A DNA stretch of 64,000 bases from the human T2T-CHM13v2.0 reference genome, Homo sapiens. A model generated the notes under the pieces. That model was not told where the DNA came from and did not search any database. It was given only the letters and a program-made list of their open reading frames with translations. The position numbers and the translations under genes were made by a program. This document shows positions 16,900 through 27,310 of the stretch, piece after piece (the stretch's first letter is position 1; each line of letters opens with the position of its first letter). The stretch lies in the NCBI RefSeq assembly GCF_009914755.1, contig NC_060927.1. One strand, 5' to 3'.

Positions 16900-18738
16900 C
16901 AGACTAAAGTCAATCATAAGTTTCTAAATACTATCAAGCAAATAAGGAGACAAGATATCATGAATGAGGCAGCAGAAAAAAGAGAAAAAAAAGATTTAGC
17001 CCATAAAAACCTTAAGATAATTAAATTGTCAGACGCAAAATGTAGAATAGCCAATGTATAAAAAAAAAAAAGCTGAATTCACTGATGGACCAAGCCACAA
17101 GAGACTTTCATAAATGAGCAGGAAATTCTAGAAAAGCAACCAAATGGAACTTCTAGATATTGAAAATATAATGGCTGAAATGAAGTAAAAACTAATTAAA
17201 CAGGTTAAATAGCAGAAAAAGCATAGCCAAAGAGTTAACAGTAAAGATATATCTGAAAAATTACCCACAAAACAAGAGCAGAGAGCCAGGGGAATAGAAA
17301 TATGAAAATGGAGATATACATGTAGGATTGAATGAAAATGTTCAATCCAAAGTACCACTCTGAGTAGAGTCCTAGAAAAAGAGAAAAGAGGGAATAGAAG
17401 AGAGGCTTGCCAATAAATGTACGAACTTAGGAAAAAATGATAAATTTATTAAAAATAGAACTACAAACTTTCAATTAGGAAGTAGAAAGTCTGAACAGTC
17501 CTAAAATTATTATAAAAATTGATCAATGCCTAAAGAAAGAAAAATTCCAGGCCCAAGTTTTAACATGCAAGCTCTAATATACTTTTGATGATATTATATC
17601 TTCAATCTAATATAAAGTCTTCCAGATAATGGAAAACTAGAGGGGGAGGATATTGCCCAAATCATTCAATGAGACCAGTATAACCTTGATACATAGACAT
17701 GATAAGGAGAGTTAAAAAAAAAAAAAAAGAAAATGACAGGCCAGCCTCTCTCATTCATAAATATACAAACAAAAGTTTTAAAGAAAATATTGCCAATCTA
17801 AATTTAAAAATTTATAAACTATACAATCTACTAAAAGCAATTTATCATTATCCCAGAAATTCACAAATGATTTATTACAAATAAAATTACAGAAAATGGA
17901 TGTAAAAGCATATGATCATCTTGAGAGAAAAACTTATTTGAGGAAAAATAGACACTGATTCAGAATAAAAACTCTTTAAATTTTAAAAACTCTCCAAATA
18001 ATTTGATTAAAAAACAGACACTGATTCAGGAGAAAAATTCTTAGCAAAATAAGAAGGGAAATGAACTTAACGTGATAAAAGATATCTGCCAAAAGCCTAT
18101 AGCAAATGTTATTGTTAATGGTGAAATATTAGAAGCATCTCTTTCAAAGATAGAAATTTAGCAAAGAATTAATAGTTTCAAATTAACATTCAGTTGGAAT
18201 GTCTAACTAGCAGCATCAGACTAGAAAAATCATGGGAAACTAAGGATGTGAAGGGAACAGACAAAACATATTATTCACAGATGATATAATGGAGAAAACA
18301 CAAAATAATCTATCTAAAATTTGTAGAAATTGATTAAAGTAAAGCCAGGTGGTTTGTTATAAGATTAATATGCAAAAATTATTTGTGTATTTATATCTCA
18401 TCAAACAACAATTAGGAAAAAAAGTCTCGTATAAGTGACATTTGTGACAGCAACAAATATTGTAAGAATCCTAGGAATATACCTAAAAAACATTTCAAAA
18501 TTATATGGAGAAAATTATGTGAGCATTAAAAGATATTCCAAATGATTAATGAAAATACTACATATTTTTGAATAAAGAGATATTCTTAATGTCAGCTCTT
18601 TCCTAATTGATGTGAAGAGTCAGTGCAATCCCAATCAAAATTACCATAGGATTTGCTGTAAAATTTGATAACTGATTCTAAAATGTTTATAGAAGAATAC
18701 AGTCAAGTATATTCAAGACACTCATAAAGAAAAAGGAG
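16900..18738 (+). mobile_element. Old L1M body fragment, resuming at about 25111-25430
   Basis: Degraded ORF2-like motifs (ccaggcccaag, gagaccagtataaccttgata, cacagatgatat, caatcccaatcaaaatt). Confidence 0.65.
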
Positions 18739-18739
18739 C

Positions 18740-25097: not shown

Positions 25098-27310
25098 AAA
25101 GAAAAAGGAGTGTAGACTTGCCGTCATTGCAGAAGCAGAGCTTATTATATTACTAGATGAATTAAGACAATGTGATATAATTTCAGAGAAAACCAAACTG
25201 CCCAATAGAGTGGGACTAGGGAGACCAGAAATAGGTCCAAACAACATATGAGAGAGCTGGCATTTCACATCACTGGGGAAATGAAGTTCTCTTTAATAAA
25301 CAGTGATAATTTTCCATATGTAAAATCAATTAATATGAATTCATGACTTAAATGTGAAAAGCAAAGTTTTAGAGATTTTGTAAGTATAAGGGAATATCTT
25401 TATGACCTATAGTTCAAAGATTTTTAAAGCATTATGATGTTAACTATAAAAAATCTTAAAATTCTACATTGCTTCTTAATGAGTCATACAAATATATATA
25501 CACTAAAACTTTATTTAACCTATATGGCTGCTTTTTACATTATAAGCCAGATAGTTCATAGATCGCAAAGAGCTAATTTCAAAACATTTTTCATAAGAAA
25601 TAATCTTGCAGGGGAAATAAGCCCAAAACCCAACTAAGAAAGATAGTCCATGGATACTCAATAATCATTTATTAGAGAAAAATGAATTAACTTGAATGAT
25701 ATGAATAATTAGAAAAATAATTAACCTGAACTAGAATTGAGATATTTATTTGTTGCTGTTGTTGTTTTAGTCTTAGCATCAAGTATGTATTTTCTTTAAA
25801 GGCCATTTTTTTAATCCTAAAAAATTTCAACTGTAAATAAAATCCATCTCAACCCAAAAATCATTCTCTCAAACAAACTTGATTTAAGCAAGAATGTAAT
25901 AGGAGAAAAGTGATACCTGCCTTCTTTTTCCATCCTATTCAAAGCATTTTTCTTCCTTATCAAATACTATTACTACAAGATTTGGATAGTCCCCTTTTAT
26001 AAGTCCTAGAAATTTTGCCTGTGCATTTTGCCCTCATGTTGGTTTAAAGCAACTGAATTCCTGCAGTTTATTAAAGCTTTTCTGGGTTGTTCAAACCATA
26101 CTGACCACAATAATTAATACTGGATAATTTTAAATCTAGTCCCTAGACATAAATTCAGGTAGTATACATACACTATGATTCTGCTGTTGTCCTTAGGGTT
26201 ACACTGACTATGCCTTACCATGTAATCAGATGGAATATGTTGAAAATAGAGTAACTGATCTCATTTCAAACCTGTGAGTCATTGGCATTAGTTATCCAAT
26301 GAGTTTTGTAAGCAAAGTCATGTATAGAATGTATACATATGTAGTTTTGTCCTATCTTATTTTTTCTACTTTTTACAGGGTCTTCCTAAAGTAGCAGATA
26401 GTCACAAAAATGCTCAAATAACTAACTTTATAAATGCTAGTTTCCAACCTATTAATTAAAAAAAAAAGAAAAAGAACACTTACCAATGAATGTACTTAAT
26501 TCAAAAATGGTTTCTACCAACATTGTTCTCAACTCTAATGTACCTGGTAAAATAGCCCATGTATGCTTCTTTGAAATTTTGCCATCTCATTACTTACACC
26601 AAAATCAATCTTTAAAAAAACAAAAACAGAGAGACAACGTTGATGTTTGGTCTAGCAGTGTTGCTAAGTATTTTAAAAGCAGCAAAGAGTAAATTGAGAA
26701 CCACACAACTAATAGTCCAAAATACTATTGTTATATGCCCCTCATCTGCAGCTTGCCTAATGATTTTCCAAATATTAAAAACCAAATGGAGTTAGTGAAT
26801 TAATGGTCATTACAACACCCATCAGCACGTCTATAAACCATGTGTACAGCTTTATCATATTTTACACACCAAGCAAGAAAGTCAATTATTTGTGACTTCT
26901 CTTCCCAGTTAGATTGCACCTCCTCAAAGGCAGAATCATTTTCTTTCCATTTCGCTTCCCTTAGAGTGCCTCATGCCTAGTTGGCTCTATGTGTTATTAA
27001 TTAAAAAAAGAAAACTAAAACAGAAACTAAGGTTGAATTGTGGCTTGAAACAATGGATGGAAGTAACGTAAGTGTGGAACTCTCTTTAATCTGACCCCCT
27101 TAAATTATTCTATATGCAAACAGTTTTTAAAGAAGTCTCCTTAAATGCAAATCACTGTCAGGTTCCATATGGTCACCAAATAAAATATTTCTGAGGCATT
27201 GTTTAAAACATCGCAAAGTAACACATTGGAAACAAGTTTTAGTCTCTGTTTCTAAGATGAGTACACAAAAAGATTTTTATCAAATCATTTGAGTTATTGA
27301 CCTCTTACAA

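What the first reader, a model, noticed from the sequence alone, without database searches (positions are those of the whole stretch)
18726..25110. Chimeric KRAB-ZNF-leader/L1 retrocopy joined at the L1 5'UTR splice acceptor: apparent host-promoter capture (splice-mediated 5' transduction)
Seen: one TSD (aaagaaaaaggag, 18726-18738 and 25098-25110) brackets 267 nt of non-L1 sequence plus an L1 that starts mid-5'UTR at about 19336 (cttctgagagagcagc). Known: ZNF91/ZNF141/ZNF595-type exon 1 ends ..gctaagac.ccaggaca..cctg.aagc..agaaATG|gt; here that ATG (19214) is followed by GAACTGGTTACT (MELVT.., like ZNF595) rather than the intron. In L1PA the matching position (TGACAG|CTTTGAAGAGAGCAG) is the acceptor used in SpIRE97/622 elements. 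Inference: a transcript from a KRAB-ZNF promoter was spliced into an intronic L1, replacing the L1 promoter while keeping ORF1 and ORF2, and was retrotransposed in cis. An L1 would thus have borrowed the promoter of a gene family that represses transposons; sibling copies may exist.
Basis: partly seen in the sequence, partly recalled or inferred. Interest (0 to 1): 0.82.

Follow-up and report, generated by a model that had tools for sequence, protein, structure and literature searches.

The report
KRAB-ZNF leader fused to old L1
An old LINE-1 copy carries the first two spliced exons of a KRAB zinc-finger gene in place of its own promoter, one more example of a recently described kind of chimera, but the exon-to-L1 joint is not at a splice site.

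Summary
One exact 13-bp target-site duplication (18726-38 and 25098-110) brackets a later Alu, a 273-nt non-L1 leader (19069-19341) and a decayed L1 that runs from mid-5'UTR through ORF1 and ORF2 to an A-rich tail.

In the genome, the leader splits at its ATG. The first part matches KRAB-ZNF first exons that end ATG|GT. The second part matches a conserved piece 1.8-3.8 kb further on in the same genes, preceded by AG. So a canonical intron was removed and the RNA started at a KZNF promoter.

The proposed splice into the L1 is not supported. Leader homology runs 6 nt past the proposed junction, to 19341, in 17 of 17 KZNF paralogs. It also reads through a conserved GT donor at 19308. Neither GT nor AG lies at the real breakpoint, and only 6 of 29 related L1s have AG at the site homologous to the known acceptor.

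The likeliest origin is read-through from a 5'-truncated L1 in the KZNF intron. RT template switching is the main rival.

No sibling copy or source L1 was found. The class is already published (Law & Burns 2026). This locus is not in their table, which lists a ZNF681/L1 case.

The parts
18726..18738 (+). 5' target-site duplication of the chimeric insertion (AAAGAAAAAGGAG). The cleavage context is AT/AAAG.
   Evidence: exact 13/13 match with 25098-25110. These are the only 2 copies in the window, against 0.03 expected.
18740..19059 (+). Later sense Alu-like insertion with an A-rich tail. It is flanked by its own 10-bp TSD AAAAAGGAGC (18730-39 and 19060-69) and is not part of the original chimera.
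   Evidence: The ~300-bp segment matches many loci at 78-88%. The name Alu is recalled from its start motif; no repeat library was run.
19069..19216 (+). Leader part 1: KRAB-ZNF first exon (5'UTR ending in the ATG at 19214-16). GAG at 19066-68 is shared between the TSD and the exon.
   Evidence: It is 82-84% identical to genomic first exons that continue ATG|GTGAGT (chr21, chr18, chr19, chr4) and 87-88% identical to two dispersed copies (chr14, chr7).
19217..19307 (+). Leader part 2: conserved alternative exon from KZNF intron 1, running up to the conserved GT donor position.
   Evidence: It matches 17 paralog copies at 61-76 of 91-94 positions. TAG precedes it in 8 of 17. GCAG|GT follows in 10 of 17 and GCAG|GC in 6 of 17.
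19308..19341 (+). Leader part 3: 34 nt of KZNF intron read through past that donor. The last 14 nt (AAAAGTACCTTCTG) could be the TSD of a parental L1 insertion (inference).
   Evidence: 26-29 of 34 identical in 17 of 17 paralogs, all of which then continue T[CT]A[TC]GAAGAT-type intron sequence without any L1.
19342..19779 (+). L1 5'UTR remnant, starting 6 nt 3' of the position homologous to the L1.3 acceptor A620G621.
   Evidence: It is 86-89% identical to 29 full-length L1s and differs at 30 of 439 columns (6.8%) from their column majority, with 1 indel event.
19780..21131 (+). L1 ORF1 remnant (ATG at 19780), broken by stops and frameshifts. It is split by an antisense Alu at 20602-20898, which has an 11-bp TSD TCAATATTCTT.
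   Evidence: Tnp_22_trimer E 8.6e-14, Transposase_22 E 6e-25, Tnp_22_dsRBD E 1.6e-30.
21162..25097 (+). L1 ORF2 remnant (endonuclease start, reverse transcriptase), 3'UTR and a short degenerate A-rich tail.
   Evidence: Exo_endo_phos weak (E 0.0045), RVT_1 E 1.3e-26. No ORF exceeds 255 codons.
25098..25110 (+). 3' target-site duplication.

Best explanation
This is a single, ancient L1-mediated (TPRT) insertion of one chimeric RNA, roughly 40 Myr old.

Shown:
- The RNA began at or near the transcription start of a KRAB-ZNF gene related to the chr4p16.3, chr18/chr21 and chr19 clusters.
- Its exon 1 was spliced GT-AG to a conserved alternative exon in intron 1.
- It then ran 34 nt past that exon's conserved GT donor into the intron.
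- It continues directly into an L1 at mid-5'UTR and on through ORF1, ORF2 and the L1 poly(A) site.

Inferred:
- The leader-to-L1 joint was already present in the DNA of the parent gene. A sense, 5'-truncated L1 had inserted just after ...CCTG in the KZNF intron.
- Transcripts from the KZNF promoter ended at the L1 polyadenylation signal. The alternative exon, 34 nt of intron and the L1 therefore formed a composite terminal exon.
- This RNA encoded ORF1p and ORF2p and was copied in cis. The KZNF promoter stood in for the missing L1 promoter.
- The new copy carries only transcribed leader, so it was probably promoter-dead. It left no detected offspring.
For: One event:
- One exact 13-bp TSD, an AT/AAAG cleavage context, an A-rich 3' tail and no poly(A) between leader and L1.

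KZNF origin and splicing:
- Split genome hits at query 1-149 and 148-267, lying 1.8-3.8 kb apart in the same loci.
- ATG|GTGAGT in 5 of 5 genomic exon-1 copies aligned.
- TAG| before the second exon in 8 of 17 copies.
- KRAB box joined to this exon type in retrocopy L004.

Joint not spliced:
- Leader homology reaches 19341 in 17 of 17 paralogs, with the last 8 nt matching at 4-7 of 8 and at 7 of 8 in nine of them.
The next 439 columns show only 6.8% substitutions and one indel event.
- A conserved donor at 19308 (GT in 10 of 17, GC in 6 of 17) is read through.

Cis model:
- The L1 part keeps all of ORF1 and ORF2, as cis-preference requires and as in most published exon/L1 chimeras.
- The last 14 nt of the leader start with AAAA after GC, like an L1 target site (inference).
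- RAP1GDS1/L1PA2 is a published precedent for promoter co-option by an intronic, promoter-defective L1.
Against: - No source locus exists in this genome. All 17 paralog copies examined are empty at the predicted site.
- No sense L1 5'UTR lies within 10 kb downstream of the second exon.
- No sibling with the same joint was found. The pattern search found only the window itself. In the search spanning the junction, 0 of the 39 scored hits other than the window itself crossed the joint, though only 40 of 1700 candidates were scored.
- The parental-TSD reading of the last 14 nt was made after the fact.
- The breakpoint is only 6 nt from a known L1 acceptor site. That would be an unlikely coincidence for a random truncation, roughly 1-2% within a ~1-kb 5'UTR (my estimate).
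- The leader is only 80-88% identical to any extant copy, so single-base arguments about the parent rest on family majorities.
Confidence: 0.45

Rival explanations
1. RT template switching, or another joining of two RNAs in trans, during or before TPRT. ORF2p copied an ordinary full-length L1 RNA up to about 5'UTR position 628. It then jumped to an internal, intronic point of a partly spliced KZNF pre-mRNA and copied that to near its 5' end.
For: - There is no GT or AG at the joint.
- No source L1 is present in any KZNF paralog examined.
- Law & Burns also find no intronic L1 in most donor genes and invoke recombination in trans.
- Both parts are in sense orientation, as template switching predicts.
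Against: - Known template-switch chimeras (U6, 5S, Alu) usually carry strongly 5'-truncated L1 parts. Here RT would have had to copy about 5.4 kb and stop inside the 5'UTR.
- The partner's end at the joint is an arbitrary intronic point, not an RNA 3' end.
- There is no clear microhomology at 19341|19342. A CTG microhomology would require an extra 1-nt deletion.
Confidence: 0.28
2. Cis- or trans-splicing from a weak donor right after ...GTAC (19335) into the L1 acceptor homologous to A620G621, with later local mutation blurring the first six L1 bases.
For: - The joint is within 6 nt of the acceptor used in SpIRE97/622 and in the published PALLD/L1PA5 chimera, whose L1 part starts CTTTGAAGAGAGCAG.
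- 3 of 17 paralogs (chr4 copies) have GT at exactly that position.
- CpG decay gives AG in 6 of 29 related L1s.
- A polypyrimidine stretch precedes the site.
Against: - It needs 4 adjacent substitutions or 2 indels within 8 nt, where the element otherwise shows 6.8% substitutions and 1 indel event in 439 nt.
- The six bases in question instead match the KZNF intron at 5 of 6.
- The majority of related L1s have GG there, not AG.
- SpIRE97/622 elements were found only in L1PA1-6, none in L1PA7 or older.
- A stronger conserved donor 28 nt upstream would have been skipped.
Confidence: 0.1
3. A classical long 5' transduction, later shortened. The RNA read from the alternative exon through more intron into a full-length L1. 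A later deletion, in the parent or at chr3, removed the rest of the intron and the first ~630 nt of the L1.
For: It explains a joint with no splice signals and no microhomology. Deletions do occur in this element, for example a 6-nt gap.
Against: It needs an extra event whose end happens to fall next to a known acceptor. There is no trace of further intron sequence.
Confidence: 0.1

Closest known systems
mRNA/lncRNA-exon + LINE-1 chimeric insertions ('5' transduction events'), Law & Burns, Cell Genomics 2026 (PMC13174262; preprint 10.1101/2025.02.02.635956). I read preprint sections 24 and 25, passages of the published text, and all of Table S5.
   Same: One TSD around the first exons of a gene in sense orientation plus a near-full-length L1, with an EN-type site and an L1 poly(A) tail. 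The host promoter stands in for the L1 promoter.
   Different: This locus is not among the 17 rows of their Table S5. The later Alu inside its 5' TSD may have hidden it from their alignment-based pipeline (my guess). The leader ends in an intron, not at a donor.
ZNF681-exon-1/L1 chimera, hg38 chr3:94441985-94449213 (Table S5, first row)
   Same: A KZNF first exon of the same general type, fused in sense to a long old L1 within one TSD.
   Different: It has a different TSD, a different second piece, 11 untemplated bases at the joint and a full-length L1. It is a separate event elsewhere on chr3.
RAP1GDS1/L1PA2 promoter co-option (Law & Burns, preprint section 25)
   Same: A promoter-defective intronic L1 is transcribed from the host gene's promoter and retrotransposed with spliced upstream exons. 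This is the mechanism I favour here.
   Different: In that case the source L1 still exists, the exon is spliced to a cryptic acceptor 15 bp upstream of the L1, and four offspring copies are known. Here there is no source, no offspring and no splice at the joint.
PALLD/L1PA5 chimera and SpIRE97/622 (Larson et al. 2018, PMC5860796; passages read)
   Same: The L1 part begins in the same short stretch of the 5'UTR, next to acceptor A620G621.
   Different: Those joints lie exactly after the AG. Here the joint is 6 nt further 3', and the AG is absent from most related L1s. SpIREs also keep L1 nt 1-97, which are absent here.
U6/L1 and other small-RNA/L1 template-switch or ligation chimeras
   Same: Two RNAs in sense orientation within one TSD, with no poly(A) between them.
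   Different: In those, the partner is a whole small RNA joined at its own 3' end, and the L1 part is usually short.
SVA-F1 (MAST2 exon 1 spliced onto SVA).
   Same: A retroelement acquired a host gene's first exon by transcription from the host promoter.
   Different: There the joint is a true splice and the chimera founded a subfamily. Neither is seen here.

Membership tests
Exon/LINE-1 5' chimeric insertion (Law & Burns class) | One TSD flanks the non-L1 piece and the L1 together, at an EN-type cleavage site | tested here: met
   13/13 TSD, with only 2 copies in the window against 0.03 expected. The context AT/AAAG is the same string scored as an EN motif in a row of their supplementary tables.
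Exon/LINE-1 5' chimeric insertion (Law & Burns class) | The non-L1 piece maps to the first exons of a gene, in sense orientation, with the intron removed | tested here: met
   Split hits 1.8-3.8 kb apart in KZNF loci. ATG|GTGAGT in 5 of 5 genomic exon-1 copies. TAG| before the second exon in 8 of 17 copies.
Exon/LINE-1 5' chimeric insertion (Law & Burns class) | L1 part with its own 3' end and A tail, usually longer than 5 kb; no poly(A) between the two parts | tested here: met
   19342-25097 is about 5.4 kb of L1 once the 297-bp internal Alu is subtracted. ORF1 and RT domains are found. No A-run at the joint.
Splice-mediated exon-to-L1 A620G621 joint (PALLD/L1PA5 type) | The exon piece ends exactly where the source gene has a GT donor | tested here: not met
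At the breakpoint 19341|19342, 0 of 17 paralogs have GT.
Splice-mediated exon-to-L1 A620G621 joint (PALLD/L1PA5 type) | The L1 piece starts right after an AG acceptor | tested here: not met
   Related L1s read GA before the 19342-equivalent base (G in 27 of 29, A in 28 of 29). AG at the homologous acceptor occurs in only 6 of 29, and that site is 6 nt upstream.
SpIRE97/622 | L1 nt 1-97 joined to nt 622 onward | tested here: not met
   The sequence upstream of the joint is KZNF, not L1.
Cis promoter co-option by an intronic L1 (RAP1GDS1/L1PA2 type) | A source L1 in the donor gene's intron, contiguous with the 3' end of the transduced piece | tested here: inconclusive
   None in 17 of 17 paralog sites, nor within 10 kb in the 3 loci checked. 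The parent copy may be lost, and other primate genomes are not held here.
Cis promoter co-option by an intronic L1 (RAP1GDS1/L1PA2 type) | Several offspring with the same leader-L1 joint and different TSDs | tested here: not met
   Only the window itself matched. One search scored 40 of 1700 candidates.
RT template-switch chimera (U6/L1 type) | The partner RNA's own 3' end lies at the joint, and the L1 part is truncated at a variable, usually 3'-proximal point | tested here: inconclusive
   The joint is at an internal intronic point of the KZNF RNA. The L1 part is near full length. Neither fact excludes a jump.

The most novel reading that the evidence does not exclude
KRAB-ZNF genes may be recurrent launch pads for L1. 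L1s lying in KZNF introns, or L1 RNAs joined to KZNF 5' exons, would be repeatedly mobilised from KZNF promoters, which are active where L1 jumps.

The exon-1 search scored all 27 of its candidates. Of the 7 dispersed copies of this exon type that it found, the exon piece in 4 is followed directly, or within 158 nt, by L1 sequence:
- this locus;
- chr14:85.78 Mb, where a donor-ended KRAB-B exon is joined to the natural 5' end of a full-length L1;
- chr7:95.94 Mb;
- chr4:169.30 Mb.

Only 2 of the 7 are ordinary KRAB retrocopies. A ZNF681 case is in print. If this holds, the gene family that represses L1 has itself repeatedly supplied L1 with promoters that escape repression aimed at the L1 5'UTR.
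Probability: 0.2. Interest if true: 0.6.

Novelty: new member of a known kind. Interest (0 to 1): 0.36.

Why it matters
The locus adds an unlisted case, and a second KZNF-derived one, to the small published catalogue of 17 L1 insertions that carry host-gene first exons.

It also shows that such chimeras need not arise by splicing into the L1. Here the exon piece runs into its intron and meets the L1 with no splice signals. That points to plain read-through from an intronic, promoter-less L1, or to an RT jump.

It documents how an L1 that has lost its own promoter, and with it the KZNF-targeted part of its 5'UTR, can still be mobilised once from a host promoter. That the promoter belongs to the KZNF family is a curiosity. 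It would matter only if the recurrence suggested by the other dispersed exon-1 copies proves real.

Tried and rejected
- Leader as an old L1 5'UTR type: rejected. The exon-1 query has only 27 genome candidates, all scored, and most lie in KZNF clusters. An L1 5'UTR would have hundreds of copies.
- Two separate insertions: rejected. There is one TSD and no poly(A) between the parts.
- Sibling search: the 25-nt joint pattern with up to 1 mismatch found only the window itself. A 221-nt query spanning the joint gave L1 hits that all start at query 109-115, equivalent to window 19338 or later. Old siblings may have diverged too far for the pattern search.
- Source L1 search: 10 kb downstream of the second exon at chr4:208032, chr21:12375419 and chr7:65971631 held only Alus and antisense L1 pieces.
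- TSDs for the other L1-joined copies: none was found for chr14, whose L1 3' end is replaced by an inverted L1 piece. None was found for chr7 or chr4:169.3 Mb. They therefore remain unconfirmed as single insertions.
- The short similarity between the L003 sequence after its KRAB-B exon and the chr7 gene's intron stops after 12 nt. The L1 piece there does not come from that intron.
- Three-frame translation of the whole L1 was not accepted because of 105 stop codons. Stop-to-stop ORFs were scanned instead.
- No RepeatMasker or Dfam library was available, so the L1 subfamily is only inferred from divergence.
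Full report
**Anatomy**

The window is T2T-CHM13 chr3:109,554,001-109,618,000 (hub note; one search confirms). AAAGAAAAAGGAG occurs only at 18726-38 and 25098-110, against 0.03 expected from shuffles. 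Reading from the 5' copy:

- A sense Alu-like repeat lies at 18740-19059. Its own perfect 10-bp duplication AAAAAGGAGC sits at 18730-39 and 19060-69. It therefore entered later, inside the older duplication.
- A non-L1 leader starts at 19069.
- L1 sequence follows, with an ORF1 start at 19780.
  - ORF1 domains: Tnp_22_trimer, Transposase_22 and Tnp_22_dsRBD, E 1e-14 to 1e-30.
  - ORF2 domains: a weak endonuclease match and RVT_1 at E 1e-26.
- A short A-rich tail ends at 25097.

All reading frames are broken; the longest stop-to-stop frame is 255 codons. An antisense Alu at 20602-20898, with an 11-bp duplication, splits ORF1. The upstream context AT/AAAG fits L1 endonuclease.

**The leader is a spliced KZNF 5' end**

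A whole-genome search with 19069-19335 gave split hits.

- Bases 1-149 match about 20 places.
- Bases 148-267 match about 20 places.
- At chr4 (several pairs), chr21:12.37 Mb and chr18:14.29 Mb the two parts lie 1.8-3.8 kb apart on the same strand.

In 5 of 5 genomic exon-1 copies aligned, the sequence goes on ATG|GTGAGT. In the window the ATG is followed by the second piece.

That second piece is preceded by TAG in 8 of 17 paralog copies. Two have TGG. The chr19-type copies differ upstream.

The exon type belongs to KRAB-ZNF genes. In retrocopy L004 it is joined to a reading frame with a KRAB box (E 7e-21). The hits lie in the chr19 and chr4p clusters; gene names such as ZNF595, ZNF141 and ZNF721 for chr4p16.3 are recalled, not from a call.

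Best identities:

| Compared with | Identity |
|---|---|
| Exon 1 vs gene copies | 84% |
| Exon 1 vs two dispersed copies | 87-88% |
| Second piece vs chr4 copies | 86% |

No extant parent can be named. The 'MELVT' likeness to a KRAB-A start is a coincidence, because the second piece is not a KRAB exon.

**The joint with the L1**

Seventeen paralog copies of the second piece were aligned.

- Window 19308-19341 matches every one of them at 26-29 of 34 positions.
- All 17 then continue with T[CT]A[TC]GAAGAT-type intron sequence.
- The window instead continues AGAGAGCAG..., which is L1.

Twenty-nine full-length L1s, 86-89% identical over 445 nt, read ...CCTGCCTGC[C/T][A/G]G CTCTGAAGAGAGCAG... at this place. 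L1 identity with the window is unambiguous from 19342. BLAST extends it at most to 19338.

They fall in columns that are at least 27 of 29 conserved. Over the next 439 columns the window differs from the column majority at only 30 (6.8%) and has a single indel event. Read as KZNF intron, the same six bases differ from the paralog majority (CTCCTG) by one transition.

The breakpoint is therefore 19341|19342.

- The paralogs have TC, TT or CC after it, not GT.
- The L1s have GA before it, not AG.
- A conserved donor-like site at 19308 (GCAG|GT in 10 of 17, GC in 6 of 17) was read through.
- At the site homologous to the L1.3 acceptor A620G621, only 6 of 29 related L1s have AG. Three have CG and most have TG followed by G, the pattern of a decayed CpG.

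The papers agree with this placement:

- Larson et al. (passages read) found SpIRE97/622 only in L1PA1-6 and none in L1PA7 or older.
- The first L1 base after that acceptor is the C of CTTTGAAGAGAGCAG in the published PALLD chimera and in the RAP1GDS1 source element (Table S5).

The window's joint is thus 6 nt off the acceptor.

**Mechanism**

*Shown:* one RNA-derived insertion whose 5' part is a KZNF transcript with one intron spliced out and the next one entered.

*Inferred:* how that RNA came to continue as L1. I favour a parental arrangement in DNA (confidence 0.45).

- A sense L1, 5'-truncated in its 5'UTR, had inserted 34 nt past the alternative exon.
- Transcripts from the KZNF promoter ended at the L1 poly(A) signal before any downstream acceptor was made. 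The donor at 19308 therefore had no partner, and exon, intron stub and L1 formed one terminal exon.
- The RNA encoded both L1 proteins and was copied in cis.

Three points support this.

- The L1 part keeps both ORFs entire. This is the rule for published exon/L1 chimeras, whereas small-RNA chimeras carry short L1 parts.
- The RAP1GDS1/L1PA2 case is a precedent.
- Weakly, the last 14 leader bases begin AAAA after GC, as a target-site duplication of the parental insertion would.

Several points count against it.

- No such source exists in this genome. All 17 paralog sites are empty, and 3 loci checked to 10 kb hold no sense L1.
- No sibling copy was found.
- The nearness to a known acceptor is an odd coincidence.

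The rivals are:

| Rival | Confidence |
|---|---|
| RT template switch, or other joining in trans | 0.28 |
| True splice blurred by later mutation | 0.10 |
| Longer transduction later shortened by deletion | 0.10 |

**Age and fate**

A 6.8% divergence from the majority of its nearest copies, at about 0.17% per Myr, gives roughly 40 Myr. The rate is recalled from Khan et al. 2006, which was not read here. That age corresponds to an L1PA7/8-like element. No repeat library was available, and the nearest-copy majority understates divergence.

The insertion's 5' end lies about 25-30 nt inside the exon as seen in other retrocopies, at a 3-nt GAG microhomology with the target. The copy carries only transcribed sequence, so any 'promoter capture' benefited the parent RNA, not the new copy.

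**Comparison with what is known**

Law & Burns describe exactly this class. I read preprint sections 24 and 25, passages of the Cell Genomics 2026 text and Table S5 in full.

- The class has 17 insertions with first exons fused in sense to mostly near-full-length L1s.
- Six end at splice donors.
- Some enter the L1 at the 622 acceptor.
- One family shows promoter co-option.

Their table has two chr3 rows: ZNF681 at 94.44 Mb and CNOT1 at 140.64 Mb (hg38). Both have different TSDs and sequences, so this locus is not listed.

Full-text searches gave no other paper on KZNF-exon/L1 chimeras. The searches used were 'spliced integrated retrotransposed' + LINE-1 and LINE-1 + zinc finger + chimeric insertion + first exon. 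Their PDF supplements could not be read.

**Side result**

The exon-1 query has only 27 genome candidates, and all were scored. Seven lie outside KZNF clusters.

- **This locus.**
- **chr14:85.78 Mb (L002).** Exon 1 and the KRAB-B exon end exactly where the chr7:65.98 Mb gene copy has GT. They are joined to base ~3-5 of a full-length L1; 9 of 9 related L1s start there. The L1 3' end is rearranged and no TSD was found.
- **chr7:95.94 Mb (L003).** The same two exons are followed by an old L1 ORF2 piece at 69% identity. This is probably a TE-derived exon of the parent transcript.
- **chr4:169.30 Mb (L077).** Exon 1 ends at ATG. After 158 nt comes old-L1 ORF1 homology at 58%, E 1e-20. No TSD was found.
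- **chr11 and chr10.** Ordinary KRAB retrocopies.
- **chrX:56.72 Mb.** Exon 1 is followed by unidentified sequence.

So 4 of 7 dispersed copies of this exon type abut L1 sequence. This is a lead, not a result. The ascertainment started from an L1-joined copy, and three of the four lack TSD proof.

**Verdict**

The finding is real and well observed. It is a new member of a recently published kind. The specific claim of a splice into the L1 acceptor is not supported.

Noticed in passing
L002 1498-1744 plus L1 from 1745 (G000 chr14:85,779,514 onward); also L064, L066: KZNF exon 1 and the KRAB-B exon, with KRAB-A skipped, end exactly at the exon's donor position. They are joined directly to base ~3-5 of a full-length L1PA-type L1. 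The L1 3' end is replaced by an inverted L1 piece and no TSD was found. The locus is not in Law & Burns Table S5. It is a likely second unlisted KZNF/L1 chimera, of the 'donor-ended exon + L1 nt 1' type.
   Followed up: partly
L003 1475-1704 then 1705 onward (G000 chr7:95,938,413 onward): Exon 1 and a partly deleted KRAB-B exon end at the donor. An old L1 ORF2 fragment follows (69% identity to L1PA-type ORF2). This is probably a retrocopy of a KZNF isoform with a TE-derived last exon. No TSD was found.
   Followed up: partly
L077 151-277 then 278-1001 (G000 chr4:169,301,126 onward): A more diverged KZNF first exon (70% identity) ends at its ATG. After 158 nt comes homology to the end of an old L1 5'UTR and the start of ORF1 (58%, E 1e-20). 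The 5' flank is A-rich. No second copy of the flank was found within 3 mismatches.
   Followed up: partly
L078 (G000 chrX:56,721,467 onward): A KZNF-type first exon ends at ATG and is followed by sequence that is neither GT-intron, KRAB nor L1. It was not identified.
   Followed up: no
window 18740-19059: A sense Alu-like insertion with a perfect 10-bp TSD sits inside the 5' TSD of the chimera. It separates the TSD from the leader and may explain why alignment-based catalogues missed this locus.
   Followed up: yes
window 20602-20898: An antisense Alu with an 11-bp TSD (TCAATATTCTT, 20591-601 and 20899-909) splits the ORF1 dsRBD-like domain.
   Followed up: yes
17 KZNF paralog loci (L010, L011, L014, L046-L059), equivalent to window 19217-19350: A ~125-nt block in KZNF intron 1 is conserved across the chr4, chr7, chr18, chr19, chr21 and chr1 paralogs. 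It has a nearly invariant CCTTCAGCAGG[T/C]ACCTGG core and looks like a conserved alternative (poison or 5'UTR) exon. Its use in present-day transcripts was not checked.
   Followed up: partly
L017-L045, column equivalent to window 19335-36: The dinucleotide homologous to the L1.3 acceptor A620G621 is a decayed CpG context in these older L1s: CG in 3, CA in 7 (AG read on this strand in 6) and TG in about 18 of 29. Individual old copies can therefore gain or lack the acceptor by CpG decay.
   Followed up: yes
idea, from L002 and Table S5 of PMC13174262: Exon pieces that end exactly at a donor and are joined to L1 nt 1 with no acceptor could arise another way. ORF2p might jump end-to-end from the L1 RNA 5' end onto free 5'-exon splicing intermediates, whose 3'-OH lies at the donor. 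This is untested.
   Followed up: no
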